Of a stretch of DNA of 49,376 nt, positions 6,965 through 30,609 are shown in pieces. Position numbers and translations under genes: made by a program. This DNA is from a virus (lineage: Duplodnaviria; Heunggongvirae; Uroviricota; Caudoviricetes). Position 1 is the first letter of the stretch. Every line of letters starts with the position of its first letter. The stretch lies in IMG/VR virus record IMGVR_UViG_2909251562_000001. The stretch is one strand, 5' to 3'. The notes below the pieces were generated by a model that saw only the letters and a program-made list of their open reading frames with translations, searched no databases and was not told the origin of the DNA.

Positions 6965-7195
6965 ATGAAAAAATCAGAAGTATTAGGCTATTTTGGCGGA
7001 GTTGTTAAAACAGCCGCAGCTCTAGGAACGTCAAAAACCACAGTCAGCATGTGGGGGGAAGAGGTTCCGTGGAAATGGGCGTTGCTAATTCAGGCAGTCA
7101 CTGCCGGGGCGCTCAAATATGAGTTACACATACCGACGGTTGTCATTCCCGGTTCTGATCATAATCCGCCTTCTAACCAAGGGGGGGATTCATGA
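6965..7195 (+). CDS. Cro-like small HTH regulator
   Basis: ATG 6965 preceded by GGAG; about 76 aa; HTH-like stretch LGTSKTTVSMWGEE; divergent from the repressor. Confidence 0.65.
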   Translation: MKKSEVLGYFGGVVKTAAALGTSKTTVSMWGEEVPWKWALLIQAVTAGALKYELHIPTVVIPGSDHNPPSNQGGDS

Positions 7196-7617
7196 AAATC
7201 AAGCATGAACACATCCGCATGGCGATGAATGCCTGGGCGCATCCGGACGGCGAGAAAGTACCGGCTGCAGAGATTACCAAAGCGTATTTCGAGCTGGGAA
7301 TGACGTTCCCGGAACTGTATGACGACAGCCATCCGGAAGCCCTGGCTCGCAATACCCAGAAAATTTTCCGCTGGGTAGAGAAAGACACCCCTGATGCAGT
7401 TGAAAAAATTCAGGCGTTGTTACCAGCGATCGAAAAGGCAATGCCACCTTTGCTGGTGGCCAGAATGCGCAGCCACAGTTCTGCTTATTTTCGGGAGCTG
7501 GTGGAGACGCGGGAGCGACTGGTGAGAGACGCTGATGATTTTGTCGCAGTGGCAATCGCCGGTTTCAATCAGATGAACCGCGGTGGCCCGGCGGGAAATG
7601 CCGTGGTGATGCACTAA
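7192..7617 (+). CDS. YdaT-like / CII-like early protein
   Basis: 141 aa starting MKIKHEHI, as in Rac YdaT-family proteins (recalled). Overlaps the Cro-like stop by 4 nt. Confidence 0.5.
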   Translation: MKIKHEHIRMAMNAWAHPDGEKVPAAEITKAYFELGMTFPELYDDSHPEALARNTQKIFRWVEKDTPDAVEKIQALLPAIEKAMPPLLVARMRSHSSAYFRELVETRERLVRDADDFVAVAIAGFNQMNRGGPAGNAVVMH

Positions 7618-13518: not shown

Positions 13519-14640
13519 GTGTTTAACGGTACTAATTTAAGACTTGCTCGTCTGTATCACGAGCTATCTCTGGAGCAGGTTGCTGAGAAGGTTGAAAAAA
13601 CACGCCAGTATGTACAGCGACTGGAGTCTGGTTCAGCTACTCCATCCCCAGAGCTTATAAATAAATTAGCCGAGGTTTTGCGCGTGAAGCCCGCCTTTTT
13701 CGAAGGGCAGGAACATTCTCCTGTTAATGAAGAGATTGTACATTTTCGTAAACGCGCCTCGACAAGGATGTCAACGAAGCTATCAACACTCGCTAAGGCT
13801 GAGTTTTATCGTCGTTTTATTGATGTATTTGAAGATAACCTTAATTTGTCACCTGTTCGATTTCCTGAATTTCGTGTCCATACACAAGAAGATATCGAGC
13901 GAGCGGCAGAAAAATGTCGTATTGAGTGGGGCTTAGGCTTTGGCCCAATTGAAAATATGACTCGCCTTGCCGAGAAACTTGGGGCGTTTGTTACTTCATT
14001 TGACTCCGTTTCGGATGAAGTAGATGCACTGTCTGTTCCTCTACGAAGGCCTTTTATTGTTCGAAATACAGCTAAAAATTCACCTTGTAGGCAACGCTTT
14101 GATATTGCTCATGAGGTTGCCCATTTGATTCTTCATGAAGGAATTTCTACTGGGGATAGATTAACTGAATCCCAGGCAAACCGTTTTGCCTCTGCTCTGT
14201 TGCTTCCCAGAACGTCGATGGCGAAATATTTTCCAAGACCTGTGGGGGGGAGGATAAATTGGCAGGGACTAAGCCAATTTAAGTTGACATGGAAAGTAAG
14301 TAAGGCTGCCATTGTTTACAGGGCTCATCAATTAGGACTTTTGACTGATGAGCAGTACAGAACTGCATTTATGGGGTTGAAACGGAAAGGGGAAGCTATT
14401 GATGAAAAAGAAGATTATCTAATCCCTCATGAGCGTCCTGAGTTATTCCGTCGGGCTTTATCGTTTTTATTTGAAGAGTTAGGATACGACCCACAGCGTA
14501 TAGCTGATGAAATGGATATAGAAGTGGACATTTTTTATGAGTTAGCAGGAGATGATCTTCCTGCGGTTCATGAACTGCCAGGAAGTGGTGATGTTGTTTC
14601 ACTACAATCTTACCGAACTCTTAGAGGCAAAATTCACTAG
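13519..14640 (+). CDS. XRE-family HTH fused to ImmA/IrrE-type zinc metallopeptidase (COG2856-like)
   Basis: N-terminal HTH (LSLEQVAEKVEKTRQYVQRLESG) and HEXXH motif HEVAHLILH in a 373-aa protein. Confidence 0.8.
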   Translation: MFNGTNLRLARLYHELSLEQVAEKVEKTRQYVQRLESGSATPSPELINKLAEVLRVKPAFFEGQEHSPVNEEIVHFRKRASTRMSTKLSTLAKAEFYRRFIDVFEDNLNLSPVRFPEFRVHTQEDIERAAEKCRIEWGLGFGPIENMTRLAEKLGAFVTSFDSVSDEVDALSVPLRRPFIVRNTAKNSPCRQRFDIAHEVAHLILHEGISTGDRLTESQANRFASALLLPRTSMAKYFPRPVGGRINWQGLSQFKLTWKVSKAAIVYRAHQLGLLTDEQYRTAFMGLKRKGEAIDEKEDYLIPHERPELFRRALSFLFEELGYDPQRIADEMDIEVDIFYELAGDDLPAVHELPGSGDVVSLQSYRTLRGKIH

Positions 14641-14643
14641 GCA

Positions 14644-14666
14644 TAACCCGCTTCGGCGGGTTTTTT
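14644..14666 (+). terminator. rho-independent terminator (copy 2 of the 23-bp repeat)
   Basis: Identical TAACCCGCTTCGGCGGGTTTTTT immediately after the XRE/ImmA gene. Confidence 0.7.
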
Positions 14667-14741
14667 GTTTTACGTATTCTGGTTTACAATCTACAGGCCA
14701 GCCTGAACAACTGGCACCTGCTGCGCCAGCAGAGAAAACCG

Positions 14742-15014
14742 ATGGCGCACAATACCAAACATCACAATTCTGATACCGACCTTGCCAGCTGGCACGGGCG
14801 GCGTTCTCATACATTCAAATATGACTGGTACCAGCATGCTCCATGCACTGAAGAACAGGCCGAATGGCTGATTCAGAACTACCGCAGGCGTGGGTACGAC
14901 TTTCAGAAAGACCTCAGCCCTGACTTCCGACACTGGATAATTTCTGTCAGGCTCCCTTATTCCGAACGCCCACCGCGTCCGTCCCGCACATTCCAGCAAC
15001 GCATCTGGAGGTAA
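14742..15014 (+). CDS. hypothetical small protein
   Basis: 90-aa ORF abutting the DUF968 gene (stop and start adjacent); start uncertain. Confidence 0.4.
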   Translation: MAHNTKHHNSDTDLASWHGRRSHTFKYDWYQHAPCTEEQAEWLIQNYRRRGYDFQKDLSPDFRHWIISVRLPYSERPPRPSRTFQQRIWR

Positions 15015-15015
15015 C

Positions 15016-16062
15016 GTGCGGGTATTACTTCGACCTGTTCTGGTGCCGGAACTTGGGGTGGTTATCGTTAAGCCAGGTCGTGAATCCATGCAGGTATTCC
15101 ATAACGGCAGAGTGCTGGTTGAACCGGAGCCAAAAAGCATGCGCGGTCTGCCGTCCGGAGTCGTTCCTGCTGTTCGCCAGCCGCTGGCGGAGGATAAATC
15201 ATTACTGCCATTTTTCAGCGATGAGCGGGTGATTCGTGCTGCTGGTGGTGCTGGTGCATTGTCTGACTGGCTGTTACGCCACGTTAAATCCTGCCAGTGG
15301 CCTCATGGTGACTATCATCACAGTGAAACCGTCATACATCGTTATGGTACCGGCGCAATGGTGTTGTGCTGGCACTGCGACAACCAGCTGCGTGACCAGA
15401 CATCCGAATCACTCGAGCAACTTGCTCATCAAAACCTGTCAGCATGGATGATTGACGTCATACGCCATGCAATGAATGGCACGCAGGAGCGGGAATTATC
15501 GCTGGCTGAATTATCTTGGTGGGCAACCATAAATAACGTAGCGGACGCACTACCGGAGACGGTATTACGTCGTTCGCTGGGATTGCGCGCGGAAAAAATT
15601 CGCTCAGTATACCGCGAGAGCGACATCGTGCCGGGAGAGCAGACTGCCACCAGCATACTGAAGCAGCGCACAAAAAATCTTGCGCCGCTGCCTCACGCCC
15701 ACCAGCAAAACCCGCCACAGGAAAAGACGGTGGTCAGCATTGCTGTTGATCCGGAGTCTCCGGAATCTTTCATGAAACGACCTAAACGTCGCCGCTGGGT
15801 TAACGAGAAATACACACGCTGGGTGAAGACACAGCCGTGTGCGTGTTGTGGTAAGCCAGCCGACGATCCCCATCACCTGATTGGTCATGGTCAGGGCGGA
15901 ATGGGGACAAAATCTCACGATATTTTTACGCTACCGCTGTGTCGGGAGCATCACAACGAGCTTCATGCGGATCCGCTGGCGTTCGAAGAAAAGCATGGTT
16001 CTCAGGTTGATTTAATTTTTCGTTTTCTTGATCACGCCTTTGCAACTGGCGTGCTTGGGTAA
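15016..16062 (+). CDS. DUF968-family phage protein with C-terminal Cys/His (HNH-like) motif
   Basis: 348 aa; C-terminal CACCGKPADDPHHLIGHG...CREHHNELH; resembles Qin YdfU-type proteins (recalled). Confidence 0.65.
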   Translation: MRVLLRPVLVPELGVVIVKPGRESMQVFHNGRVLVEPEPKSMRGLPSGVVPAVRQPLAEDKSLLPFFSDERVIRAAGGAGALSDWLLRHVKSCQWPHGDYHHSETVIHRYGTGAMVLCWHCDNQLRDQTSESLEQLAHQNLSAWMIDVIRHAMNGTQERELSLAELSWWATINNVADALPETVLRRSLGLRAEKIRSVYRESDIVPGEQTATSILKQRTKNLAPLPHAHQQNPPQEKTVVSIAVDPESPESFMKRPKRRRWVNEKYTRWVKTQPCACCGKPADDPHHLIGHGQGGMGTKSHDIFTLPLCREHHNELHADPLAFEEKHGSQVDLIFRFLDHAFATGVLG

Positions 16063-16074
16063 AAGAGGTGACTG

Positions 16075-16434
16075 ATGCTCATAGATTTGGTTTTACCTTA
16101 CCCGCCGACGGTGAACACTTACTGGCGACGCCGTGGCAGCACATATTTTATCTCGGAGGAGGGAAAGCGTTATCGCCGTGATGTGGCGCTTATTGTTCGC
16201 CAGCAGCGACTGAAATTAAAGCTGTCCGGACGGCTGGCGATAAAGGTGATTGCAGAGCCACCGGATAAACGTCGTCGTGACCTGGACAATATCCTGAAAG
16301 CACCACTGGATGCACTGACACATGCGGGGTTGCTTATCGACGACGAGCAGTTTGATGAAATCAATATTGTGCGCGGTCAGCTCGTTCCTGGTGGGCGACT
16401 GGGGATAAAAATCACAGAATTGGGGTGCGCATGA
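16075..16434 (+). CDS. rusA: RusA-family Holliday junction resolvase
   Basis: 119 aa, MLIDLVLPYPPTVNTYW N-terminus and conserved acidic residues (RRDLDNILKAPLDAL). Confidence 0.85.
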   Translation: MLIDLVLPYPPTVNTYWRRRGSTYFISEEGKRYRRDVALIVRQQRLKLKLSGRLAIKVIAEPPDKRRRDLDNILKAPLDALTHAGLLIDDEQFDEINIVRGQLVPGGRLGIKITELGCA

Positions 16435-17120
16435 ATAACCAGTATTTACAGTTTGTGCGTGAGCAGCTCATTATCGCCACCGCTGATTTGAGTGGGGCAA
16501 CAAAAGGTCAGCTTGAAGCCTGGCAGGAGAATGCCATGTTTGATACAGGGCGTTACAGGCGTAAAAAAATCCGGTACCGAGATGAAGTGACCGGAAAAAT
16601 GATTACGCGGGATAATCCACCAATCCCGGGGAAACAATCGCTGGCGAAGGGGACGTCAATTCCTCTGGTCAGTCCGGTTGAGTTTTCGACATCATCGTGG
16701 CGGCGGGCTGTTCTGTCTCTTGAAGAACATCATAAAGCCTGGTTGTTATGGTGTTACAGCGGGAGTATTTGTTGGGAATATCAGATCGCGATAACACAGT
16801 GGGCGTGGAATGAATTTAATACTCAATCCGGTACCAGAAAAATTGCAGGGAAAACGCAGGAACGCCTGAAAAAATTAATCTGGCTGGCGGCGCAGGCAGT
16901 AAAAGCAGAACTTTTTGGTGGGGAAGGTTATGAATACCAGGAGCTGGCATTACTGGCGGGAGTGACAACTAAAAACTGGTCCAAAACATTTACTCGTCAC
17001 TGGGTTGCAATGAAACACATTTTTCACCGACTGGATAGTGAGGCTTTATTGTTTGTAATGAGAACACGTTCAAAACAAAAGGCGGCATTTTCAAAGCAAA
17101 GTGTTGCAAAAGTAGATTGA
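16425..17120 (+). CDS. late-gene antiterminator Q-like protein
   Basis: 231 aa, overlaps the rusA stop; positioned just upstream of a terminator and the lysis genes. Confidence 0.65.
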   Translation: MRMNNQYLQFVREQLIIATADLSGATKGQLEAWQENAMFDTGRYRRKKIRYRDEVTGKMITRDNPPIPGKQSLAKGTSIPLVSPVEFSTSSWRRAVLSLEEHHKAWLLWCYSGSICWEYQIAITQWAWNEFNTQSGTRKIAGKTQERLKKLIWLAAQAVKAELFGGEGYEYQELALLAGVTTKNWSKTFTRHWVAMKHIFHRLDSEALLFVMRTRSKQKAAFSKQSVAKVD

Positions 17121-17183
17121 AAGGCATATATTTCATGCAAATCTGATATTTTGCCGATTTTGTACGTGATGGCAAAAGCAAAC

Positions 17184-17210
17184 AAAACCCGCCCACAAGC
17201 GGGTTTTTTT
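17184..17210 (+). terminator. tR'-like intrinsic terminator downstream of Q
   Basis: AAAACCCGC-CCACAA-GCGGGTTTTTTT hairpin with U-tract, about 65 nt after the Q stop. Confidence 0.6.
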
Positions 17211-17330
17211 GTGCCACTTATCTCGGATAGAAATGGTGAATGCGCTGGTGGAGGAAGTAAGGGTAATTTTTAACCAGGTGATTCTTGAATGCTTGCAACA
17301 TTTATTTCGTAACGTTATTATCCTGCGCCC

Positions 17331-17406
17331 GGCCCTTTAGCTCAGTGGTGAGAGCGAGCGACTCATAATCGCCAGGTCGCTGGTTCAAATCCAGCAAGGG
17401 CCACCA
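17331..17406 (+). tRNA. tRNA with CAU anticodon (Ile2 lysidine-type or Met)
   Basis: 76 nt with encoded CCA; 7-bp acceptor stem GGCCCTT/AAGGGCC; anticodon loop CUCAUAA; closely resembles E. coli ileX as recalled. Confidence 0.85.
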
Positions 17407-17407
17407 A

Positions 17408-17484
17408 CCGTCACCAGTTCATCAGGAAAGAGCGTCAACCCTTTAAGTTGAGTGTGCGAGGTTCGAGTCCCCGGTGGCGGTCCA
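17408..17484 (+). tRNA. atypical tRNA-like gene (anticodon loop CCUUUAA, possibly Lys-UUU)
   Basis: 77 nt ending in CCA; acceptor CCGTCAC/GTGGCGG (one G-U pair); T-arm with TTCGAGT loop; anticodon stem TCAAC/GTTGA. Position 33 is C rather than U and the 5' nucleotide is C. Confidence 0.4.
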
Positions 17485-17486
17485 GT

Positions 17487-17562
<76 letters not shown>

Positions 17563-17565
17563 TAT

Positions 17566-17640
<75 letters not shown>

Positions 17641-17914
17641 GCATTTGAAATAAGCCTTATTGTATTGCAGCACTGGCGTATTTTTTATTACGTGGGAGCA
17701 GGTTGTTTTAAGAGACATTCTGTTCTCTGGCTATAATTTGAGGCCAGGTGTAGCCTCAGTGCTGATTTTTTTACGACAGCAGAATGGTGCATTATCGGTG
17801 GAGATTTTGTATTTCCTGGCAGGGTCGGTGATGCATCATTCCGATGTTGTAAGCATCGCTCAGAATAACGTTGAGATTAATCGCGTACTAAGCAAAACCT
17901 GGAAATACATCCTT

Positions 17915-17941
17915 AACCGCCGCACCAGGCGGTTTTTTTTA
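17915..17941 (+). terminator. intrinsic terminator after the tRNA cluster
   Basis: AACCGCC-GCACCA-GGCGGTT followed by a run of nine T. Confidence 0.55.
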
Positions 17942-18107
17942 TTCATTTTTTTTTCATGGCTCGCTACGGCGGGCCTTTTTCATATCCTCGCCACACCCGG
18001 CGCATATCACATCAAATAACGCCGCGCAAAAGGCATCTGCGGGTGCCTTTGACGGGGTGTTTTTACGGGCCGCTGGTGGCCCTTTTTTATTTACAGGAGA
18101 AAAACGT

Positions 18108-18497
18108 ATGTCTGAACCCTTATCCGGTTCCGGCACGGCTGCGGCGCTCGGTGGGGCGACGGTGTACGGGCTGTTTACCGGAACGGATTTCGGGATTGTG
18201 TTTGGTGCGTTCGCCGGGGCGTTATTTGTGGCAACGATGCCGCAGGCGCTTTCAGTCTGGCGTGTGGTGGCGCATTTTTTGGTGTCGTTTATCGTCGGCG
18301 TGCTGGGGGCGCGCGTGCTGTCAGCCTGGATTGCATCAAAAACAGGGTATGACGGTACATCGGCAGATGCGCTGTGTGCGGTGCTGGTATCGGTGGTGTC
18401 GGTGAAGATTCTGTCGTTCATCCACCAGCAGGATATTGCATCGCTGGTGTCCGGTGTGTTCTCCCGTCTGCGGGGTGGAGGCGGTAATGTTAAGTAA
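18108..18497 (+). CDS. putative holin (multi-pass membrane protein)
   Basis: ATG 18108 with AGGAGA Shine-Dalgarno; about 129 aa with three hydrophobic segments; first gene of the lysis cassette. Confidence 0.6.
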   Translation: MSEPLSGSGTAAALGGATVYGLFTGTDFGIVFGAFAGALFVATMPQALSVWRVVAHFLVSFIVGVLGARVLSAWIASKTGYDGTSADALCAVLVSVVSVKILSFIHQQDIASLVSGVFSRLRGGGGNVK

Positions 18498-18762
18498 CCT
18501 TCCCGGATTACTGAATGTGGTGTTAAGCACGGTTATCGTGCTGACGCTCTTTTTTTATCGTCGTGGTGATTCCAGACATAAACCGCTGATGTCGTGGCTG
18601 GCCTGGCTGCTGATGCTGCTGTATGCCTTTGCGCCACTTTGTTATCTGTGTGGTCGCTTTCCACCCGGTAACTGGCTGGTCGTCCTGATTAACCTGGTGT
18701 TCTGCGTGCTGGTGATACGAGCACGCGGGAACGTATCAAAAATCCTTTCATTACGGAGGTGA
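18487..18762 (+). CDS. second holin-like membrane protein
   Basis: 91 aa with three hydrophobic segments; overlaps the previous gene by 11 nt and the endolysin by 4 nt. Confidence 0.5.
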   Translation: MLSNLPGLLNVVLSTVIVLTLFFYRRGDSRHKPLMSWLAWLLMLLYAFAPLCYLCGRFPPGNWLVVLINLVFCVLVIRARGNVSKILSLRR

Positions 18763-19142
18763 GTATGCCCGGTAAATTCAGATTCAGTCGTCGAAGTGAG
18801 AAAAATCTGGAGGGCGTCAAACCACAGCTGGTTGCTGTTGTTCGCCGTGCGCTGGAGCTGACGGAGGTTGACTTCGGTATTACGGAAGGCCTGCGCAGTA
18901 AGTATCGCCAGAAGCAGCTGGTCGCGGAAGGGAAAAGCCAGACCATGAACAGCCGCCACCTGACCGGTGATGCGGTGGATGTTGTGGCCTACATTGGTAG
19001 CCAGGTGTCATGGGACTGGCCTCTGTACGAGAAAATCGCGCAGGCATTTAAGCAGGCTGCCGCAGAGCTGGGAACTGCCATCGAATGGGGCGGGGACTGG
19101 AAAACACTGAAAGACGGGCCTCACTTTCAGTTGAAGCGCTAA
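18759..19142 (+). CDS. endolysin, peptidase M15 (VanY-like) family
   Basis: 127 aa with Zn-ligand motifs SRHLTGDAVD and DGPHFQL. Confidence 0.8.
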   Translation: MSMPGKFRFSRRSEKNLEGVKPQLVAVVRRALELTEVDFGITEGLRSKYRQKQLVAEGKSQTMNSRHLTGDAVDVVAYIGSQVSWDWPLYEKIAQAFKQAAAELGTAIEWGGDWKTLKDGPHFQLKR

Positions 19143-19156
19143 TAACCAGGTGGTTT

Positions 19157-19339
19157 ATGAGCCGAAAACACTGGACACACAGAATGCCGCGAACGGCGGC
19201 GAAATGGGCACTGGTAGCGATACTGGTGCCTTTTTTCCTGGTGGGATGCGTTAGCCTGGATAAGGTGCGCCAGCTTTTCGATACGGCCTCGCAGGTCTGC
19301 GAAATTGTCGAAAGTGCCAGGCAGTGTATGCAGAACTGA
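19157..19339 (+). CDS. small lipoprotein, o-spanin (Rz1)-like
   Basis: 60 aa; signal peptide ending in lipobox LVGC; directly after the endolysin. Confidence 0.45.
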   Translation: MSRKHWTHRMPRTAAKWALVAILVPFFLVGCVSLDKVRQLFDTASQVCEIVESARQCMQN

Positions 19340-19402
19340 TCGCCTGTAAGAGCAGAATATTGTTGAATCTAAGTAAGCGGCTCGTCAGAACCGTATTGAT
19401 AT

Positions 19403-20974
19403 TTACTGAGAGCTCAGATCAACTTTCCAGGGCAACAGATCGCGTACCCGGTTTGCCGGCCAGTCCTGGATATGTTCAATGACGTAGCGCAGCCACTTTT
19501 CTGGCTCCACATTGTTCAGACGGCATGTGCCGATCAGCGAGTACAACACCGCCGCATGTTCACCACCGCTGTCGGAACCCGCGAACATCCACTTTTTCCG
19601 GCCTACGGCCACTCCCCGTAAGGCGTTCTCTGCGATGTTGTTGTCGATTTCCACCCAGCCATTACTGCAGTACACGTTCAGTGCATCCCACTGTTTCAGC
19701 AGGTATGCGAACGCTTTTGCCGTATCTGAGTGACGCGACAGTGTTTTCATCTGTTGCTGTATCCAGTCATACAGTGACTGCATCAGTGGCGCGGCTCTGG
19801 TTTTTCTTGCCGCCAGACGCTGTTCTGCTGAACAGCCCCGGACCTCTGCCTCGATGGCATACAGTTCACCGATACGCTGCAGGGCTTCCGTGGTGATGTC
19901 GGTGGGCGCTCTTGCATGCACATCGTGGATTTTTCTCCGGGCATGAGCCATACACGCGGCTTCCGTTATTCTGCCGGATTCGTATAACGCCCGGTAACCA
20001 CCGTAAGCATCGGCCTGAAGCACACCGCTGTAACCGGCCAGGTGATTTTGTGGATGGATACCTTTCCGGTCCGGACTGTACGCGAACCAGACCGCCGGGG
20101 GCATCTGTGAACCGGCGTTACGGTCATCACGGACGTAGACCCACAGCCGGGCTGTCCGGGTTTTACCGCTGCCCGGCTCCTGGACCGGGACGGGGATATC
20201 ATCAGCATGGACTTTACCGGGCATCAGCACATACTGGCGCAGGACGTCATACAGCGGCTCCAGTAGTTCAGCAACGGCACCTGTCCAGCGCCCCAGTGTG
20301 GCACGGCTCAGCTCCACACCCTGACGGCGGTATATCTCTGACTGGCGGTATAACGGCAGATGGTCTGCATATTTTCCGGTGACGACATGGGCCAGGAGCC
20401 CCGCTCCGGCATAACTGCGTGCAATGGGTTTTGAAGGTACTGGTGCCTGCACGATATGGTCGCACCGACAACAGGCCAGTTTCGGACGTTGTGTTTCGAT
20501 AACCTTAAAGGCGCTGCTGATAAGCTCCAGTTGCTCTGACACATCACATCCCAGAGAACTGAGTTCACCACCACAGGCAGGACAGCATTCCTCTTCCGGC
20601 CGGATAACCCGGGTTTCACGGGGAAGTGAGGCCGGTAACGGTTTACGGGCTGAAGACTGGCGCAGGGCGGATGGCAGTACCGGGTCATATTGCTCACCCA
20701 GCGTTTCCGCCATTTCTTCCTGAAGTGCGCTGATTCGCTCCTGTGCTTCCTGTATCTGCCGTTCGGTTTTTGCACGAAGTTTTTCTGAGCTTTTACCGAA
20801 CTGCATACGTTGCAGTTTCGCAACCAGCGCCTTCAGCCGGTTGATTTCGGAAGCATAAGCCGCCACCCGCTGTGAGAGCAGGCGGTTGTATTCAGCCATC
20901 TGGCGGATGGTGTCCTGTTGCGTCTGCAACAGTGCCCGCAGGCGGGCGTTCTCATGAGCAAGTGAGGTGTCCAT
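19403..20974 (-). CDS. tnpC: IS66-family transposase TnpC
   Basis: 523 aa with N-terminal coiled-coil/leucine-zipper region, Cys cluster (CPACGG...CRC) and DDE-type core typical of IS66 transposases. Confidence 0.9.
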
Positions 20975-20993
20975 ATCCTCACTTTACAACGGG

Positions 20994-21341
20994 TTATATG
21001 CGGATTCCAGCGCGTTCCGTTCGTTTCGGGTGCTTCCAGTTGATACCTTCAAGAAGCATGGATAACTGAGCCGGAGTAAGGTGCACCTTGCCGTCACGGG
21101 TGACTGGCCAGACGAAGCGGCCCCGCTCCAGGCGTTTGGTGAAGAGGCACAGTCCGTCACTGTCAGCCCACAACACTTTTATCTGGTCACCCCGGCGTCC
21201 GCGGAAGATGAACAGGTGTCCGGAGAACGGGTCATCCTTCAGGACGTTCTGAACTTTTGATGCCAGGCCGTTAAAGCCATTTCGCATATCGGTGATACCT
21301 GCAACCAGCCAGATACGCGAACCTGCAGGGAGAGATATCAT
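20994..21341 (-). CDS. tnpB: IS66 Orf2 (TnpB) accessory protein
   Basis: 115 aa, MISLPAGSRIWLVAGITDMRNGFNGL... matches the conserved IS66 Orf2 family. Confidence 0.85.
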   Translation of the reverse strand: MISLPAGSRIWLVAGITDMRNGFNGLASKVQNVLKDDPFSGHLFIFRGRRGDQIKVLWADSDGLCLFTKRLERGRFVWPVTRDGKVHLTPAQLSMLLEGINWKHPKRTERAGIRI

Positions 21342-22018
21342 CAGTGGCTGCTCCCTTTTATTTCGCGGATAAGTGTCTGTAATAACGCCGGCGTCAGTTT
21401 ACCTTTAAGCCTGAGAGTTCCGGCCGGCAGAACCAGCTCACAACACAGACTGTCGGACGGTGTATTTATCTGCTCTGGTTCCTGTGCGGGGGCCGGGATT
21501 TTATTATCCGGCTCCGGCGTTAACGTCACGGGAAGCAGTGCCGGCATATTTTTTCCGGAAGGCAGCAGGCCACCTTTCCGGTATTGATGGCGCCAGTTGA
21601 AGAGCAGGTTATCGTTGATTCCGTTTTCCCGGGCGATCTGCGCCACACAGGCTCCGGGCTGCAGTGACTGCTCCACTAAGGCGATTTTAAACTCATAAGG
21701 GAAGTTGGGCCGCCGGGGACGTTTTTTTACCACGGGGGCTTCGGATATAACGGTGCTTTCAGGACGTACGACTGGTACCGTGGAAAATTGTCCGTAAAGG
21801 CAGGCATCAAGTTCCTGCTCCGACATGCCTGCGGGCAAAGGCCACGAAAGGCCAGCTCTCCGAAAGCGCACGAACATACTACAAACTGTTGATTTTGGTA
21901 CACCCAGGCGACGCCCGGCCACAACCCGGGGTAAATGTTCTTCAAAGTGAAGACGTAAAGCTTCAGTGATCCAGGTCCGGTGTTTCATACGATAGTGTCC
22001 ATTAAAAATGATGGACAT
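21341..22018 (-). CDS. tnpA: IS66 Orf1 (TnpA-like) accessory protein
   Basis: 225-aa ORF (start may be internal) with HTH-like N-terminus; stop overlaps the Orf2 start. Confidence 0.65.
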   Translation of the reverse strand: MSIIFNGHYRMKHRTWITEALRLHFEEHLPRVVAGRRLGVPKSTVCSMFVRFRRAGLSWPLPAGMSEQELDACLYGQFSTVPVVRPESTVISEAPVVKKRPRRPNFPYEFKIALVEQSLQPGACVAQIARENGINDNLLFNWRHQYRKGGLLPSGKNMPALLPVTLTPEPDNKIPAPAQEPEQINTPSDSLCCELVLPAGTLRLKGKLTPALLQTLIREIKGSSH

Positions 22019-22133
22019 TATTTTTGTAGAGCCGGAGGAAACAGACCAGACGGTTTAAATGAGCCGGTTACGAATCTAAATTTACTTTGAACAGTGGCCC
22101 GGATGGAAAGGGCATCTAAATAGGAGCAGAAAA

Positions 22134-22343
22134 ATGTTAACTGTAAAAGTCATGTCTCAAAATGGTGGGGAAGAGCTCCATTGCGGGCGTAGCATTGGCT
22201 ATCATCCAGAGCAGCGGAGTATTGCCGTATCGGGAAAGGATGGGAAAGTCATTCTGAAAGATGGAGATATTGCTTATGTAATGAACCAAAACGCTCAAAT
22301 AATATCTGTTTATCGGCCCAATAATAGTCAGAAAAACATTTGA
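22134..22343 (+). CDS. hypothetical small protein (AT-rich moron)
   Basis: 69 aa, AGGAG before the ATG; begins 55 bp from the IS66 target duplication. Confidence 0.5.
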   Translation: MLTVKVMSQNGGEELHCGRSIGYHPEQRSIAVSGKDGKVILKDGDIAYVMNQNAQIISVYRPNNSQKNI

Positions 22344-22466
22344 ATTTCGCAAGTCCAAAGTTCAGTGGTGATCGTTATCAACTAATTGAAATAACAAGCT
22401 TATGTTTGTGTAATTGGTGATATAGCATGTTAATGCTGAATATCAGCGTCAACATGGAGTTATACA

Positions 22467-22682
22467 ATGGTTTTTAAACACTATTACGTGAACAAAAATG
22501 CTCAGAGCAATGGCGATCATGAGGTGCATGCTGAGGAATGTTCATATCTTCCTGCTGTAGCTAACCGCGATTACCTTGGTTACTATAGTGATTGTTCTTC
22601 GGCGGTAACAGAGGCAAAGGCCAAAGGATATTCCCGGGTGAATGGTTGCTATTGGTGTGCCAATAAGTGCCACACGTCTTAA
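22467..22682 (+). CDS. hypothetical Cys-rich small protein (AT-rich moron)
   Basis: 71 aa with GGAG Shine-Dalgarno; six Cys including CYWCANKCH; followed by a terminator. Confidence 0.5.
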   Translation: MVFKHYYVNKNAQSNGDHEVHAEECSYLPAVANRDYLGYYSDCSSAVTEAKAKGYSRVNGCYWCANKCHTS

Positions 22683-22702
22683 TCAATTGTCAATAAACCA
22701 TA

Positions 22703-22724
22703 AAGGCCGCTCTGCGGCCTTTTT
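22703..22724 (+). terminator. intrinsic terminator
   Basis: GGCCGC-TCT-GCGGCC followed by TTTT. Confidence 0.65.
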
Positions 22725-23003
22725 CATGTTAAAAAAGATTGCGGCATTACAGCAGCCCTTCACACTGAGTGGCTGCGATAATGTGAGAAATAAAAAACCG
22801 GCAGGGGAAATCCATTGAAGATTTGCCGGTGGCAAAAAGATGGCCATGCTTTCAACCTTAGTCGCAGGGTTACGGAGTGCAACTACGAATGCTGCCGGTA
22901 TATGGCTGAATGGCGTTTCAATGATGTACGTCATCTTATCTGTAAATGTTAATGATAAACGCTCTCATTTGTGCGGGTCCTTCCGGTGGGGTGGCCTGCC
23001 ACG

Positions 23004-23015
23004 GGGCGGAAGGCG
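23004..23015. other. cosN-equivalent (cohesive-end site), diverged from lambda
   Basis: Flanks align to lambda (upstream ...CACG, downstream CGCGGGTTTTCGCTATTTATGAAAATTTTCCGG is identical) but the 12-nt core reads GGGCGGAAGGCG against lambda GGGCGGCGACCT as recalled. Confidence 0.55.
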
Positions 23016-23054
23016 CGCGGGTTTTCGCTATTTATGAAAATTTTCCGGGGAAAA

Positions 23055-23167
23055 TCATGTCGGTACTTCTCGAACATAACTATTTGTTTTTTCTAATATC
23101 GAATCCGTAAAAGGTCCGACATGAAAACGCCTAAAAAAGTCATTTTCGGGCACTTTCATGTCGGACC
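23055..23167. promoter_or_regulatory. cosB-like terminase-binding region (R3, R2, R1 repeats)
   Basis: Shared core CATGTCGG three times: TCATGTCGGTAC (23055-23066), GGTCCGACATGAAA (23113-23126, inverted) and TTTCATGTCGGACC (23154-23167). R2 and R1 form a perfect 14-bp inverted repeat. Arrangement mirrors lambda cosB. Confidence 0.55.
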
Positions 23168-23191
23168 CTGTGTTTGTTGTGAGACTGTTTC

Positions 23192-23711
23192 ATGAAGGTT
23201 AATAAAAAGAAACTTGCCGAAATTTTCAACGTGGATCCGCGAACGATTGAACGCTGGCAGTCTCAGGGACTCCCTTGCGTCTCCGGAGGTGGTAAGGGCG
23301 TTGAATCTGTATTTGATACCTCCATGGCAATTCAGTGGTATGCGCAGAGGGAGGCTGATATCGAAAATGAAAAACTCCGTAAAGAGGTTGAGGATTTCAG
23401 GGCTGCCAGTGAGGCAGATCTCCAGCCTGGGACTATTGAGTACGAACGCCATCGACTTACGCGTGCGCAGGCTGACGCCCAGGAGCTGAAGAATGCCAGA
23501 GACTCCGCAGAAGTGGTGGAAACCGCATTCTGTACTTTCGTGCTGTCACGGATCGCAGGTGAAATTGCCAGTATTCTTGACGGGATCCCTCTCTCGGTAC
23601 AGCGGCGTTTTCCGGAACTGGAAAACCGACATGTTGATTTCCTGAAACGGGATATCATCAAAGCCATGAACAAAGCAGCCGCGCTGGATGAACTGATACC
23701 GGGGTTGCTGA

Positions 23712-23737
<26 letters not shown>
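23192..23737 (+). CDS. nu1: terminase small subunit Nu1
   Basis: 181 aa. C-terminal two-thirds essentially identical to lambda Nu1 as recalled; N-terminal DNA-binding region diverged. Confidence 0.95.
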
Positions 23738-27418
<3,681 letters not shown>

Positions 27419-27438
<20 letters not shown>

Positions 27439-28738
27439 TCTCCCGCATATTGCCAGTATGGCTTTTAATGAGCCGCTGATGCTTGAACCCGCCTATGCGC
27501 GGGTTTTCTTTTGTGCGCTTGCAGGCCAGCTGGGGATCAGCCGCCTGACGGATGCGGTGTCCGGTGACAGCCTGACTGCCGGAGAGGCACCCGCGACGCT
27601 GGCGTTATCCGGTAATGATGACGGGCCACGACAGGCCCGCAGTTATCAGGTCATGAACGGCATCGCCGTGCTGCCGGTGTCCGGCACGCTGGTCAGCCGG
27701 ACGCGGGCGCTGCAGCCGTATTCGGGGATGACCGGTTACAACGGCATTATCGCCCGTCTGCAACAGGCTGCCAGCGACCCGATGGTGGACGGCATTCTGC
27801 TGGATATGGACACGCCCGGCGGAATGGTGGCAGGGGCATTTGACTGCGCTGACATCATCGCCCGTGTGCGTGACATAAAGCCGGTATGGGCGCTGGCCAA
27901 TGACATGAACTGCAGCGCAGGTCAGCTGCTTGCCAGTGCCGCCTCCCGGCGTCTGGTCACGCAGACCGCCCGGACAGGCTCCATCGGCGTCATGATGGCC
28001 CACAGTAATTACGGTGCTGCGCTGGAGAAACAGGGCGTGGAAATCACGCTGATTTACAGCGGCAGCCATAAGGTGGATGGCAACCCCTACAGCCATCTAC
28101 CGGATGATGTCCGGGAGACACTGCAGTCCCGGATGGATGCAACCCGCCGGATGTTTGCACAGAAGGTGTCGGCATATACCGGCCTGTCCGTGCAGGCTGT
28201 GCTGGATACCGAGGCTGCAGTGTACAGCGGTCAGGAGGCCATTGATGCCGGACTGGCTGATGAACTTGTTAACAGTACCGATGCGATCACCGTCATGCGT
28301 GATGCACTGGATGCACGTAAATCCCGTCTCTCAGGAGGGCGAATGACCAAAGAGACTCAATCAACAACTGTTTCAGCCACTGCTTCGCAGGCTGACGTTA
28401 CTGGCGTGGTGCAAGCGACGGAGGGCGAGAACGCCAGCGCTGCGCAGCCGGACGTGAACGCGCAGATCACCGCAGCGGTTGCGGCAGAAAACAGTCGCAT
28501 TATGGGGATCCTCAACTGTGAGGAGGCTCACGGACGCGAAGAACAGGCACGCGTGCTGGCCGAAACCCCCGGTATGACCGTGGAAACGGCCCGCCGTATT
28601 CTGGCCGCAGCACCACAGAGTGCACAGGCGCGCAGTGACACTGCGCTGGATCGTCTGATGCAGGGGGCACCGGCACCGCTGGCTGCAGGTAACCCGGCAT
28701 CTGATGCCGTTAACGATTTGCTGAACACACCAGTGTAA
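27419..28738 (+). CDS. C: capsid assembly protease C
   Basis: GTG start at 27419 after GGAGGAG, giving 439 aa as in lambda gpC. The ORF-track Met at 27305 would overlap B by 134 nt. Confidence 0.9.
28343..28738 (+). CDS. nu3: scaffolding protein Nu3 (in-frame internal start within C)
   Basis: Internal ATG at 28343 with AGGAGGG Shine-Dalgarno gives 131 aa sharing the C-terminus of C, as in lambda. Confidence 0.75.
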   Translation: MTKETQSTTVSATASQADVTGVVQATEGENASAAQPDVNAQITAAVAAENSRIMGILNCEEAHGREEQARVLAETPGMTVETARRILAAAPQSAQARSDTALDRLMQGAPAPLAAGNPASDAVNDLLNTPV

Positions 28739-28747
28739 GGGATGTTT

Positions 28748-29080
28748 ATGACGAGCAAAGAAACCTTTACCCATTACCAGCCGCTGGGCAACAGTGACCC
28801 GGCTCATACCGCAACCGCGCCCGGCGGATTGAGTGCGAAAGCGCCTGCAATGACCCCGCTGATGCTGAACACCTCCACCCGTAAGCTGGTTGCGTGGGAT
28901 GGCACCACCGACGGTGCTGCCGTTGGCATTCTGGCGGTTGCTGCTGACCAGACCAGCACCACACTGACGTTCTACAAGTCCGGCACGTTCCGTTATGAGG
29001 ATGTGCTCTGGCCGGAGGCTGCCAGCGACGAGACGAAAAAACGGACCGCGTTTGCCGGAACGGCAATCAGCATCGTTTAA
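28748..29080 (+). CDS. D: head decoration protein D
   Basis: 110 aa, [12 protein letters not shown]..., near-identical to lambda gpD. Confidence 0.95.
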
Positions 29081-29100
29081 CCTGACCCTTCATCACTAAA

Positions 29101-29122
29101 GGCCGCCTGTGCGGCTTTTTTT
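29101..29122 (+). other. conserved stem-loop between D and E
   Basis: GGCCGC-CTGT-GCGGC followed by seven T; also present between lambda D and E as recalled. Confidence 0.5.
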
Positions 29123-29135
29123 ACGGGATTTTTTT

Positions 29136-30161
29136 ATGTCGATGTACACAACCGCCCAACTGCTGGCGGCAAATGAGCAGAAATTTAAGTTTGATCCGCT
29201 GTTTCTGCGTCTCTTTTTCCGTGAGAGCTATCCCTTCACCACGGAGAAAGTCTATCTCTCACAAATTCCGGGACTGGTAAACATGGCGCTGTACGTTTCG
29301 CCGATTGTTTCCGGTGAGGTTATCCGCTCCCGTGGCGGCTCCACCTCTGAATTTACACCGGGATATGTCAAGCCCAAGCATGAGGTGAATCCGCAGATGA
29401 CCCTGCGTCGCCTGCCGGATGAAGATCCACAGAATCTGGCGGACCCGGCTTACCGCCGCCGTCGCATCATCCTGCAGAACATGCGAGACGAAGAGCTGGC
29501 CATTGCCCAGGTCGAAGAGATGCAGGCAGTTTCTGCCGTGCTTAAGGGCAAATACACCATGACCGGTGAAGCCTTCGATCCGGTTGAGGTGGATATGGGT
29601 CGCAGTGAAGCGAATAACATCACGCAGTCCGGCAGCACGGAGTGGAGCAAGCGCGACAAGTCCACGTATGACCCGACCGACGATATCGAAGCCTACGCGC
29701 TGAACGCCAGCGGTGTGGTGAATATTATCGTTTTTGATCCGAAAGGCTGGGCGCTGTTCCGTTCCTTCAAAGCCGTCAGGGAGAAGCTGGATACCCGTCG
29801 CGGCTCTCATTCCGAGCTGGAGACAGCGGTGAAAGACCTGGGCAAAGCGGTGTCCTATAAGGGGATGTATGGCGATGTGGCCATCGTCGTGTATTCCGGA
29901 CAGTACGTGGAAAACGGCGTCAAAAAGAACTTTCTGCCGGACAACACGATGGTGCTGGGGAACACTCAGGCTCGCGGTCTGCGCACCTATGGCTGCATTC
30001 AGGATGCGGACGCACAGCGCGAAGGTATTAACGCTTCTGCCCGCTACCCGAAAAACTGGGTGACCAGCGGCGATCCGGCGCGTGAGTTCACCATGATTCA
30101 GTCAGCACCGCTGATGCTGCTGGCTGATCCTGATGAGTTCGTGTCCGTTCAACTGGCGTAA
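29136..30161 (+). CDS. E: major capsid protein E
   Basis: 341 aa from MSMYTTAQLLA..., near-identical to lambda gpE. Confidence 0.97.
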   Translation: MSMYTTAQLLAANEQKFKFDPLFLRLFFRESYPFTTEKVYLSQIPGLVNMALYVSPIVSGEVIRSRGGSTSEFTPGYVKPKHEVNPQMTLRRLPDEDPQNLADPAYRRRRIILQNMRDEELAIAQVEEMQAVSAVLKGKYTMTGEAFDPVEVDMGRSEANNITQSGSTEWSKRDKSTYDPTDDIEAYALNASGVVNIIVFDPKGWALFRSFKAVREKLDTRRGSHSELETAVKDLGKAVSYKGMYGDVAIVVYSGQYVENGVKKNFLPDNTMVLGNTQARGLRTYGCIQDADAQREGINASARYPKNWVTSGDPAREFTMIQSAPLMLLADPDEFVSVQLA

Positions 30162-30202
30162 TCATGGCCCTTCGGGGCCATTTTCTCTCTGTGGAGGAGT
30201 CC

Positions 30203-30598
30203 ATGACGAAAGATGAACTGATTGCCCGTCTCCGGTCGCTGGGTGAGCAACTGAACCGTGATGTCAGCCTGACGGGGACGAAAGAAGAACTGGCGCTCCG
30301 TGTGGCAGAGCTGGAAGAGGAGCTTGATGACAAGGATGACGCAGCCGGTCAGGACACGTCTGTCAGCCCGGAAAATGCGCTGACCGGACATGAAAATGAG
30401 GTGGTATCAGCACAGACGGATACCGTGACTGATACGGCTGTTCTGGTCACGGTTGTGGCACTGGTGACGCTGCATACCGATGCACTTCACGCCACGCGGG
30501 ATGAGGCTGTGGCATTTGTGCTGCCGGGAACGGCGTTCCGTGTCTCTGCCGGTGTGGCAGCTGAAATGACAGAGCGCGGCCTGGCCAGAATGCAATAA
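30203..30598 (+). CDS. FI: DNA-packaging protein FI
   Basis: 131 aa from MTKDELIARLR..., lambda gpFI-like. Confidence 0.9.
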   Translation: MTKDELIARLRSLGEQLNRDVSLTGTKEELALRVAELEEELDDKDDAAGQDTSVSPENALTGHENEVVSAQTDTVTDTAVLVTVVALVTLHTDALHATRDEAVAFVLPGTAFRVSAGVAAEMTERGLARMQ

Positions 30599-30609
30599 CG
30601 GGAGGCGCT

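What the first reader, a model, noticed from the sequence alone, without database searches (positions are those of the whole stretch)
22996..23167. cos region has a diverged cosN core and re-specified cosB repeats
The cos flanks align with lambda, but the 12-nt core reads GGGCGGAAGGCG rather than the lambda cohesive end GGGCGGCGACCT as I recall it. The cosB-like R3, R2 and R1 elements share a CATGTCGG core unlike lambda's. The Nu1 protein matches this: its N-terminal DNA-binding third is diverged while the rest is near-identical to lambda. This indicates either a packaging-specificity swap, as between lambda and phage 21, or a defective cosN in a prophage with an essentially lambda gpA.
Basis: partly seen in the sequence, partly recalled or inferred. 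Interest (0 to 1): 0.55.

Follow-up and report, generated by a model that had tools for sequence, protein, structure and literature searches.

The report
Lambda/21 hybrid cos, variant sticky end
This is the DNA-packaging site of a lambda-like E. coli prophage that joins phage-21-type recognition repeats to a minority but widespread version of the 12-base sticky end; both features fit known patterns, so it is real but ordinary.

Summary
Window 23004-23015 reads GGGCGGAAGGCG where lambda and phage 21 have GGGCGGCGACCT, a difference at bp 7, 8, 9, 10 and 12. The left half, both flanking CG dinucleotides, cosQ and the next 33 bp are conserved.

The three CATGTCGG repeats are phage 21's cosB: R3 15/16, R2 16/16 and R1 15/17 identical, with R3 at bp 50-65.

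Nu1 is a natural 21/lambda chimera. Its recognition helix is identical to 21 gp1, and aa 101-181 are 79/81 lambda. It sits next to a gpA that is 632/641 lambda. This is the architecture of the laboratory hybrid lambda-21 hy51.

The cosN variant is not a private defect:
- It occurs in 78 IMG/VR contigs and 154 of 5,426 complete E. coli genomes.
- It is joined to three cosB types and 21 different left flanks.
- It sits beside lambda, chimeric and 21-type terminases, including one gpA 641/641 identical to lambda.
- It is present in PhiR46_1, a deposited phage genome.

Feiss and colleagues have shown that cosN bp 7-12 vary naturally and tolerate mutation. The specificity-swap reading is supported. 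The defective-cosN reading is not. Cutting at this allele was not shown here.

The parts
22975..22981 (+). cosQ heptamer GGGTCCT, the packaging-termination subsite
   Evidence: Exact match to the heptamer annotated as cosQ in phage 21 OL657228 and present in lambda. Position. It lies 22 nt from the nick, against 23 nt in lambda.
22982..23003 (+). cosQ-cosN spacer (TCCGGTGGGGTGGCCTGCCACG). It is diverged from lambda, 1 nt shorter, and ends in the conserved CG before the top-strand nick.
   Evidence: Alignment. The same flank forms the right end of the phage cdtI record AB285204 and occurs in phi458. 26 of 78 IMG/VR carriers of the variant have a 22-nt spacer.
23004..23015 (+). cosN cohesive-end sequence GGGCGGAAGGCG, the predicted 12-nt 5' overhang. 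The left half equals lambda. The right half differs at bp 7, 8, 9, 10 and 12.
   Evidence: Allele frequency. The nick positions are inferred by homology and were not measured.
23016..23048 (+). Conserved cosN-to-cosB segment, beginning with the CG that flanks the bottom-strand nick
   Evidence: 33/33 identical to lambda (alignment).
23053..23068 (+). cosB R3 (AATCATGTCGGTACTT), phage-21 type TerS binding site at bp 50-65
   Evidence: 15/16 identical to the annotated R3 of phage 21, which is also at bp 50-65.
23077..23089 (-). I1, the probable IHF site between R3 and R2 (AAACAAATAGTTA on the minus strand)
   Evidence: Same position (bp 74-86) as the I1 annotated in phage 21. It has one mismatch to WATCAANNNNTTR. 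The consensus match alone is not above chance, so the assignment rests on positional homology.
23111..23126 (-). cosB R2 (AAGGTCCGACATGAAA), inverted relative to R3 and R1
   Evidence: 16/16 identical to phage 21 R2. Forms an inverted repeat with R3 and with R1.
23154..23170 (+). cosB R1 (TTTCATGTCGGACCCTG)
   Evidence: 15/17 identical to phage 21 R1.
23192..23737 (+). Terminase small subunit (Nu1/gp1 chimera). The 5' part is 21-type, including the winged-helix DNA-binding domain. The 3' part is lambda-type and carries the gpA-binding end. The crossover lies at about 23390-23410.
   Evidence: Pfam Phage_Nu1, E = 1.8e-90. aa 1-40 are 35/40 identical to 21 gp1 and 23/40 to lambda. aa 101-181 are 79/81 identical to lambda and 31/81 to 21. 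Sliding nucleotide identity locates the crossover.
23712..25637 (+). Terminase large subunit gpA, lambda-type, with ATPase and endonuclease domains
   Evidence: 632/641 identical to lambda gpA, and 7 of the 9 differences fall in aa 8-37. Pfam GpA_ATPase and GpA_nuclease.

Best explanation
This is a structurally complete lambda-family cos site (cosQ, cosN, cosB) with phage-21 packaging specificity and a naturally occurring alternative cohesive-end sequence.

Inferred mechanism, by homology:
1. The chimeric small subunit binds the 21-type R3, R2 and R1 boxes through its 21-type winged helix-turn-helix. IHF bends the DNA at I1.
2. Its lambda-type C-terminus holds a lambda-type gpA at the fixed distance from R3 (bp 50-65).
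3. gpA nicks 12 bp apart at the conserved CG-flanked positions.
4. The resulting chromosomes carry the 5' overhang GGGCGGAAGGCG.

The five changes lie in bp 7-12. gpA does not read this half sequence-specifically, because bottom-strand nicking is positioned by cosB-bound TerS. The variant is therefore a tolerated allele that has spread by recombination among lambda-like prophages. It is not a lesion.

Shown here: the sequence anatomy, the homologies, the allele's distribution and its independence from terminase type. Inferred: that this particular copy is actually cut. The prophage carrying it has other defects (J and cro frameshifts, an IS66-family insertion), so it may not yield infectious particles whatever the state of cos.
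For: cosB and TerS are 21-type.
- R boxes: R3 15/16, R2 16/16 and R1 15/17 identical to the annotated phage 21 sites. R3 and I1 lie at identical distances from cosN. R2 and R1 are each shifted by 1 bp.
- Nu1 aa 17-24 are identical to 21 gp1. Nu1 aa 101-181 are 79/81 lambda. gpA is 632/641 lambda.
- The crossover lies at about 23390-23410.

This architecture works.
- Lambda-21 hy51 has cosB21 and a small-subunit gene with a 5' half from 21 gene 1 and a 3' half from Nu1. It is a viable 21-specific phage (PMC4669245).
- The isolated phage IdasGreatGrand has the same cosB (98-99% identity) and the same chimeric Nu1 (179/181).

The cosN allele is widespread and mosaic.
- It is found in 78 IMG/VR contigs: 55 with lambda-type cosB, 18 with 21-type, 4 with a third type and 1 too short to call. 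They carry 21 distinct 30-nt left flanks.
- It is found at 165 places in 154 of 5,426 complete E. coli genomes. The lambda allele is found at 7,413 places in 4,101 genomes.

No co-adapted terminase is needed.
- L047 has the variant beside a gpA 641/641 identical to lambda.
- L053 and L055 have it beside a 21-type large subunit.

The allele is present in PhiR46_1. That phage is named for ECOR46, and its record lists ECOR13 as host.

A graded allele series exists at bp 7-12, including CAGGCG, which is one step from AAGGCG.

Published genetics agree (PMC4669245).
- Natural differences at bp 7-12 are common (N15, Gifsy-1, phiD326).
- Mutations in the right half have minimal effect.
- The flanking CG pairs and the left half are conserved.
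- Terminases containing lambda TerL show no cosN specificity between the lambda and N15 alleles.
Against: - No direct evidence of cutting at this allele was obtained. No phage record, IMG/VR contig or metagenome contig begins or ends at the variant cosN.
- That PhiR46_1 forms plaques is inferred from its record and from a citing paper. The primary paper was not read.
- Five of six right-half positions differ. This is more than in the alleles tested experimentally (2 in N15), so some loss of nicking efficiency cannot be excluded.
- cosQ is 1 nt closer to the nick than in lambda. The effect with a lambda-type gpA is untested.
- The specific combination of variant cosN and cosB21 was not found in any isolated phage.
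- This prophage copy has frameshifts in J and cro and an IS66-family insertion near cos.
Confidence: 0.8

Rival explanations
1. The cosN is defective. The right-half changes abolish or badly impair nicking, and the site is a decaying remnant in a cryptic prophage.
For: The prophage shows decay. PGAP marks gpJ and cro as frameshifted in a 100% identical genome copy. J is split into two ORFs in the window. An IS66-family element sits between the lysis genes and cos. No measured end at this allele was found.
Against: - The identical 12-mer occurs in 154 complete genomes and 78 IMG/VR contigs, with three cosB types, 21 left flanks and several terminase types. A private inactivating lesion would not be spread across backgrounds like this.
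- It is present in the deposited phage PhiR46_1.
- All changes fall in bp 7-12, where mutations have minimal effect. The positions known to matter (left half, flanking CG, cosQ, R3 spacing) are intact (PMC4669245).
Confidence: 0.07
2. The variant defines a separate cosN specificity. It needs a co-adapted large terminase subunit and would not be cut by lambda gpA.
For: Five of 12 bases differ, more than in any allele tested experimentally. The window's gpA differs from lambda's at 9 residues.
Against: - L047 carries the variant next to a gpA 641/641 identical to lambda.
- The two differences the window's gpA has outside its N-terminus (E185, V459) are not shared by PhiR46_1's gpA.
- The variant also sits beside a 21-type large subunit.
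- Terminases containing lambda TerL were shown not to discriminate between the lambda and N15 cosN alleles.
Confidence: 0.03
3. The allele is functional and also selected. With 5 of 12 mismatches, a chromosome cut from a concatemer carrying both alleles could not cyclize. The variant would then act as a compatibility group that limits productive recombination between lambda-like phages sharing a terminase.
For: - A 2/12 mismatch already lowers yield (PMC4669245).
- AAGGCG dominates among alleles with bp 7 not C: 78 of the 86 hits carry it, by comparison with the exact-pattern scan. Six others were read. Two were not listed.
- Most genomes also carry lambda-allele prophages.
Against:
- A graded series of alleles (CAGGCG, CAGACG, CTGACG, CAACCT and others) looks more like relaxed constraint than two discrete classes.
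- The variant is a 2% minority.
- The published interpretation is lack of selection at bp 7-12.
Confidence: 0.1

Closest known systems
Phage 21 cos and gp1 (OL657228, M81255)
   Same: cosB architecture and sequence: R3 at bp 50-65, I1 at bp 74-86, inverted R2, then R1, all with the CATGTCGG core. The TerS recognition helix (aa 17-24) is identical. The small-subunit start codon is at bp 189.
   Different: - Phage 21 has the lambda cohesive end GGGCGGCGACCT.
- Its small-subunit C-terminus and its large subunit are 21-type. The window is 31/81 identical to 21 over Nu1 aa 101-181 and 412/641 over the large subunit.
[quoted passage not shown] The window therefore carries a relative of 21's module, not a recent copy.
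Laboratory hybrid lambda-21 hy51 (Feiss laboratory)
   Same: cosB21 plus a chimeric small subunit, with a 5' half from 21 gene 1 and a 3' half from lambda Nu1, working with lambda gpA. It is a viable phage with 21 packaging specificity (PMC4669245).
   Different: - hy51 was made in the laboratory and has lambda's cosN.
- Its exact crossover point was not compared, because its sequence is not held.
- The window's version is natural and carries the AAGGCG allele.
Escherichia phage IdasGreatGrand (PP925829)
   Same: 99% identical from window 23016 to 23800: the same cosB, and the same chimeric Nu1 at 179/181. It is an isolated phage, which shows that this cosB/TerS arrangement works in nature.
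   Different: It has lambda's cosN (GGGCGGCGACCT) and a lambda-type cosQ-cosN spacer. The region upstream of cos is unrelated.
Natural cosN right-half variants (N15, phiD326, Gifsy-1, mEp213/LLS)
   Same: 12-nt 5' ends with the left half GGGCGG conserved and changes confined to bp 7-12. N15 differs at bp 9 and 12. Gifsy-1 differs at 8, 9 and 11. LLS/mEp213 reads GGGCGGCGCGCT (PMC4669245 and PMC12315714).
   Different: The window's allele differs from lambda at five positions (7, 8, 9, 10, 12), more than any allele named in those papers. It has not been tested experimentally. Its rotational symmetry is 8 of 16 bp against lambda's 10 of 16.
Escherichia phage PhiR46_1 (PV340565) and YDC107_1 (CP025712)
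   Same: These are the only two phage-database records with exactly the same cosN allele. PhiR46_1's gpA is 633/641 identical to the window's.
   Different: Both have lambda-type cosB and Nu1 and a 23-nt lambda-like cosQ spacer.
Phage cdtI (AB285204) and phi458 (OP434518)
   Same: They have the same cosQ and 22-nt spacer as the window. The cdtI record is written so that it ends at ...CCTGCCACG and starts at GGGCGG....
   Different: Their cohesive-end allele is GGGCGGGAGCGT. The sequence to the right of cosN is different, and the large terminase is longer (about 700 aa as annotated).

Membership tests
Lambda-like cos site (cosQ-cosN-cosB, 12-nt 5' cohesive ends) | Conserved 7-bp cosQ (GGGTCCT) about 23 nt to the left of the top-strand nick | tested here: met
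   GGGTCCT at 22975-22981. The spacer is 22 nt, 1 nt shorter than lambda's. The same spacing occurs in phage cdtI and phi458 and in 26 of 78 carriers.
Lambda-like cos site (cosQ-cosN-cosB, 12-nt 5' cohesive ends) | cosN with the conserved left half GGGCGG and CG dinucleotides flanking both nick positions | tested here: met
   ACG|GGGCGGAAGGCG|CGCGGG. The criterion is taken from PMC4669245.
Lambda-like cos site (cosQ-cosN-cosB, 12-nt 5' cohesive ends) | Identity of cosN bp 7-12 to lambda. The literature does not treat this as a defining feature. | tested here: not met
   Only bp 11 is shared. PMC4669245 states that bp 7-12 vary naturally and are not under selection.
Lambda-like cos site (cosQ-cosN-cosB, 12-nt 5' cohesive ends) | Complex cosB: R3 at bp 50-65, an IHF site, inverted R2, then R1, followed by the small and large terminase genes | tested here: met
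   Coordinates. Repeats. Pfam Phage_Nu1, GpA_ATPase and GpA_nuclease.
Lambda-like cos site (cosQ-cosN-cosB, 12-nt 5' cohesive ends) | Staggered nicking that yields 12-nt 5' overhangs in packaged DNA | not testable with these tools
   No record or contig ends at this allele. This needs terminus mapping or a cleavage assay.
Phage 21 packaging specificity | R-box sequences of the 21 type | tested here: met
   R3 15/16, R2 16/16 and R1 15/17 identical to the sites annotated in OL657228 and M81255.
Phage 21 packaging specificity | TerS recognition helix (aa 17-24) of the 21 type | tested here: met
   The window's RTIERWQS is identical to 21 gp1. Lambda has RTIQNWQE. Helix limits are from PMC9026076. 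The wing (aa 31-39) is intermediate: SGGGKGVES, against 21's SKGSKGIES and lambda's RGGGKGNEV.
Phage 21 packaging specificity | More than 1000-fold discrimination against lambda cosB in vivo | not testable with these tools
   The property was measured for 21 and lambda (PMC4669245). Here it is inferred from sequence only.
Phage 21 terminase (gp1/gp2) as a whole | 21-type small-subunit C-terminus and 21-type large subunit | tested here: not met
   Nu1 aa 101-181 are 31/81 identical to 21 and 79/81 to lambda. gpA is 412/641 identical to 21 gp2 and 632/641 to lambda gpA. The enzyme is a 21/lambda hybrid, not 21 terminase.

The most novel reading that the evidence does not exclude
GGGCGGAAGGCG marks a distinct cohesive-end compatibility group among phages that share lambda-type terminases. 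It mismatches lambda's end at 5 of 12 positions. A chromosome cut from a concatemer carrying both alleles would not cyclize. The allele would then act as a post-packaging barrier to gene flow between co-resident lambda-like prophages, rather than being neutral drift.
Probability: 0.1. Interest if true: 0.45.

Novelty: new member of a known kind. Interest (0 to 1): 0.2.

Why it matters
It matters little beyond annotation. The case shows that the three cos subsites and the two halves of the small terminase subunit reassort independently in wild E. coli prophages. It shows that nature has made the same 21/lambda hybrid that was built in the laboratory. [quoted passage not shown]

There are two practical consequences. 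Tools that locate lambda-like cos sites by the exact 12-mer GGGCGGCGACCT will miss these prophages. The allele is also a ready natural substrate for testing how many cohesive-end mismatches cyclization tolerates.

Tried and rejected
- Physical ends at the variant cosN. No phage record, IMG/VR contig or metagenome contig (31 hits) begins or ends at the site. No direct evidence of cutting was obtained.
- Literature search for the 12-mer and related alleles. Only unrelated papers print these strings. LLS/mEp213's GGGCGGCGCGCT is the one relevant hit.
- The survey most likely to list the allele is Vahanian et al. 2017, Virology 509:140. It is not held and is known here only through citations.
- The primary paper for the PhiR phages (Brenes and Laub 2025) is not held either. 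PhiR46_1 is not named in the citing papers searched.
- Identity of the third cosB type that carries the variant. Megablast of L008 against the phage collection matched only the cosN segment, so it remains unidentified.
- IHF consensus scan. The number of matches in the window is not above chance. The I1 assignment rests on position only.
- A co-adapted gpA was considered and rejected.
- Sequencing or assembly error was considered and rejected. Five complete genomes are 100% identical over 18 kb.

Full report
**What is there**

The stated interval holds the nicking and binding subsites of a lambda-family cos. Reading the sequence and aligning it with lambda J02459, phage 21 OL657228, IdasGreatGrand and phiSTEC1575-Stx2k gives the following layout, with coordinates.

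| Element | Window coordinates | Note |
|---|---|---|
| cosQ (GGGTCCT) | 22975-22981 | outside the stated interval |
| cosQ-cosN spacer | 22982-23003 | 22 nt, diverged from lambda |
| Cohesive-end sequence GGGCGGAAGGCG | 23004-23015 | lambda has GGGCGGCGACCT |
| Conserved segment | 23016-23048 | 33/33 identical to lambda |
| R3 | 23053-23068 | bp 50-65 |
| I1 | 23077-23089 | bp 74-86 |
| R2 (inverted) | 23111-23126 | |
| R1 | 23154-23170 | |
| Small terminase gene | starts 23192 | bp 189 |

The window differs at bp 7, 8, 9, 10 and 12.

The CATGTCGG core occurs three times within 110 bp, in + - + orientation. The whole 49 kb window has 5 copies against 1.9 expected. The inverted pairs are recovered independently.

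**The repeats and Nu1 are phage-21 type**

The GenBank records of phage 21 annotate R3, I1, R2 and R1.
- R3 is 15/16 identical, R2 16/16 and R1 15/17.
- R3 and I1 lie at exactly the same distance from cosN as in phage 21. R2 and R1 are each shifted by 1 bp.

The small subunit is a chimera.
- aa 1-40 are 35/40 identical to 21 gp1 and 23/40 to lambda Nu1.
- aa 17-24, the recognition helix, are identical to 21. The helix limits are from PMC9026076.
- aa 101-181 are 79/81 identical to lambda and 31/81 to 21.

Sliding nucleotide identity puts the crossover at about 23390-23410. gpA is 632/641 identical to lambda's. Pfam confirms Phage_Nu1, GpA_ATPase and GpA_nuclease.

This is the architecture of the Feiss laboratory's viable 21-specific hybrid lambda-21 hy51. 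That hybrid has cosB21 and a small-subunit gene whose 5' half is from 21 gene 1 and whose 3' half is from Nu1 (PMC4669245). A free-living counterpart exists. IdasGreatGrand is 99% identical from 23016 onward and has the same chimeric Nu1 at 179/181, but it carries lambda's cosN. The cosB/Nu1 swap and the cosN change are therefore separable events.

**The cosN variant is a widespread allele**

An exact scan of IMG/VR found 78 contigs carrying it, one of which is the window's own contig.
- cosB type: 55 lambda-type, 18 21-type, 4 a third unidentified type, 1 too short to call.
- There are 21 distinct 30-nt left flanks.
- The cosQ spacer is 23 nt in 50 contigs, 22 nt in 26 and 24 nt in 1. In one contig the cosQ heptamer is altered.

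In 5,426 complete E. coli genomes the variant occurs at 165 places in 154 genomes, 16 of them on plasmids. The lambda allele occurs at 7,413 places in 4,101 genomes.

The neighbouring large subunit can be:
- identical to lambda gpA (L047, 641/641);
- near-lambda (most contigs);
- 21-type (L053 and L055, about 412/641 identical to lambda).

No co-adapted nuclease is therefore involved.

Two phage-database records carry the allele. One is PhiR46_1, named for ECOR46 and recorded with host ECOR13. It belongs to a panel of lambda-related temperate phages used in plaque assays. I could not read the primary paper, so its plaque-forming status is an inference.

Degenerate scans revealed a series of right-half alleles: CAACCT, TGACCT, AGACCT, CAGACG, CTGACG, CAGGCG, AAGCGT, GAGCGT, GAGCAT and GAGCGG. 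CAGGCG is one step from the window's allele. It occurs with the window's own left flank and lambda cosB (L123).

The window's left flank is the right end of the phage cdtI record, which is written to start at GGGCGGGAGCGT. The same flank is present in phi458.

**How this fits what is known**

Feiss et al. 2015 (PMC4669245) make four relevant points.
- Differences at cosN bp 7-12 are common among lambda-like phages. N15 differs at bp 9 and 12, Gifsy-1 at 8, 9 and 11, and phiD326 also differs.
- Right-half mutations have minimal phenotype. Bottom-strand nicking is positioned by TerS bound at cosB.
- The left half, the flanking CG pairs and cosQ are conserved.
- Terminases containing lambda TerL gave equal yields with the lambda and N15 cosN alleles.

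The window's site keeps every feature listed there as constrained. It changes only the unconstrained half, although at five positions rather than two or three. Its rotational symmetry drops from 10 of 16 bp to 8 of 16.

A dedicated survey exists (Vahanian et al. 2017, Virology 509:140, cited). It is not held. Whether it lists this allele is unknown. No searchable paper prints the 12-mer in a phage context.

**Mechanism and limits**

The most likely account is as follows. Chimeric TerS dimers bind the 21-type R boxes with IHF at I1. They present lambda-type gpA to cosN. Nicking yields GGGCGGAAGGCG overhangs, and cosQ serves termination. Only the anatomy, the homology and the population evidence are shown here. 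Cleavage at this copy is inferred.

The cohesive-end segment is itself a joint between the two chromosome ends. The left overhang travels with cosB and the right overhang with cosQ. Mismatched ends can also persist through replication (PMC4669245 abstract). This is a plausible route by which the allele became unlinked from both flanks. It is an inference.

The prophage carrying this cos lies next to ompW. It has frameshifts in J and cro and an IS66-family insertion between the lysis genes and cos. It may be non-infectious for reasons unrelated to cos.

**Verdict**

The specificity-swap interpretation is supported. It is phage-21 specificity in a natural lambda/21 hybrid. The defective-cosN alternative is not supported. 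The site is a new member of well-described kinds and of modest interest.

Noticed in passing
window 38497-41975: The tail-tip gene J is split into two overlapping ORFs (38497-39192 and 39153-41975). PGAP marks gpJ as frameshifted in a genome 100% identical over window 14000-32000. This prophage copy probably cannot make infectious tails.
   Followed up: partly
window about 19400-22020: An IS66-family element (ISCro1-like, with tnpA, tnpB and transposase on the minus strand) is inserted between the M15 endolysin gene and cos. It may disrupt the spanin region.
   Followed up: partly
window about 6965-7208 (L111 8866-9109): PGAP annotates the Cro/CI-family regulator gene as frameshifted in the identical genome copy. 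The prophage sits beside ompW and has a Rac-like early region (kil, ydfC, recE-like exonuclease).
   Followed up: no
window about 17330-17640 (L111 19232-19541): There is a cluster of three tRNA genes (Ile, Thr, Gly) just downstream of the Q antiterminator gene, as annotated in the identical genome.
   Followed up: no
L095, L096, L097, L098 (GTDB genome contigs): Lambda-allele cos sites occur in assemblies of Raphidiopsis brookii D9, Aeromicrobium sp. PE09-221, Alicyclobacillus fastidiosus plasmid unnamed3 and Archangium violaceum. The first three have exactly lambda's flanks. Archangium's left flank differs at a few bases. This is most likely lambda or cosmid-vector contamination of those assemblies.
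   Followed up: no
L116, L117, L120, L121 (IMG/VR contigs): Single contigs of about 10 kb carry two or three separate cosQ-cosN sites with different right-half alleles (GAGCGG, CAGACG, GAGCAT, CTGACG), on both strands. These could be adjacent prophages or cos-bearing satellite islands.
   Followed up: no
L008 4116-4900; also L017, L061, L069: A third cosB type (TATTTATGAGCATTTTAAGGGGACTGGTGGTGG...) is joined to the same AAGGCG cohesive end. It has no match in the phage collection beyond the cosN segment, so its packaging specificity is unidentified.
   Followed up: partly
E. coli complete genomes; L126 (CP025712): 16 of the 165 places with the AAGGCG allele lie on plasmids. YDC107_1 is a 46.7 kb linear record filed under Ravinvirus (N15-like). 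It carries the allele with lambda-type cosB and Nu1, and its annotated Nu1 start appears truncated.
   Followed up: partly
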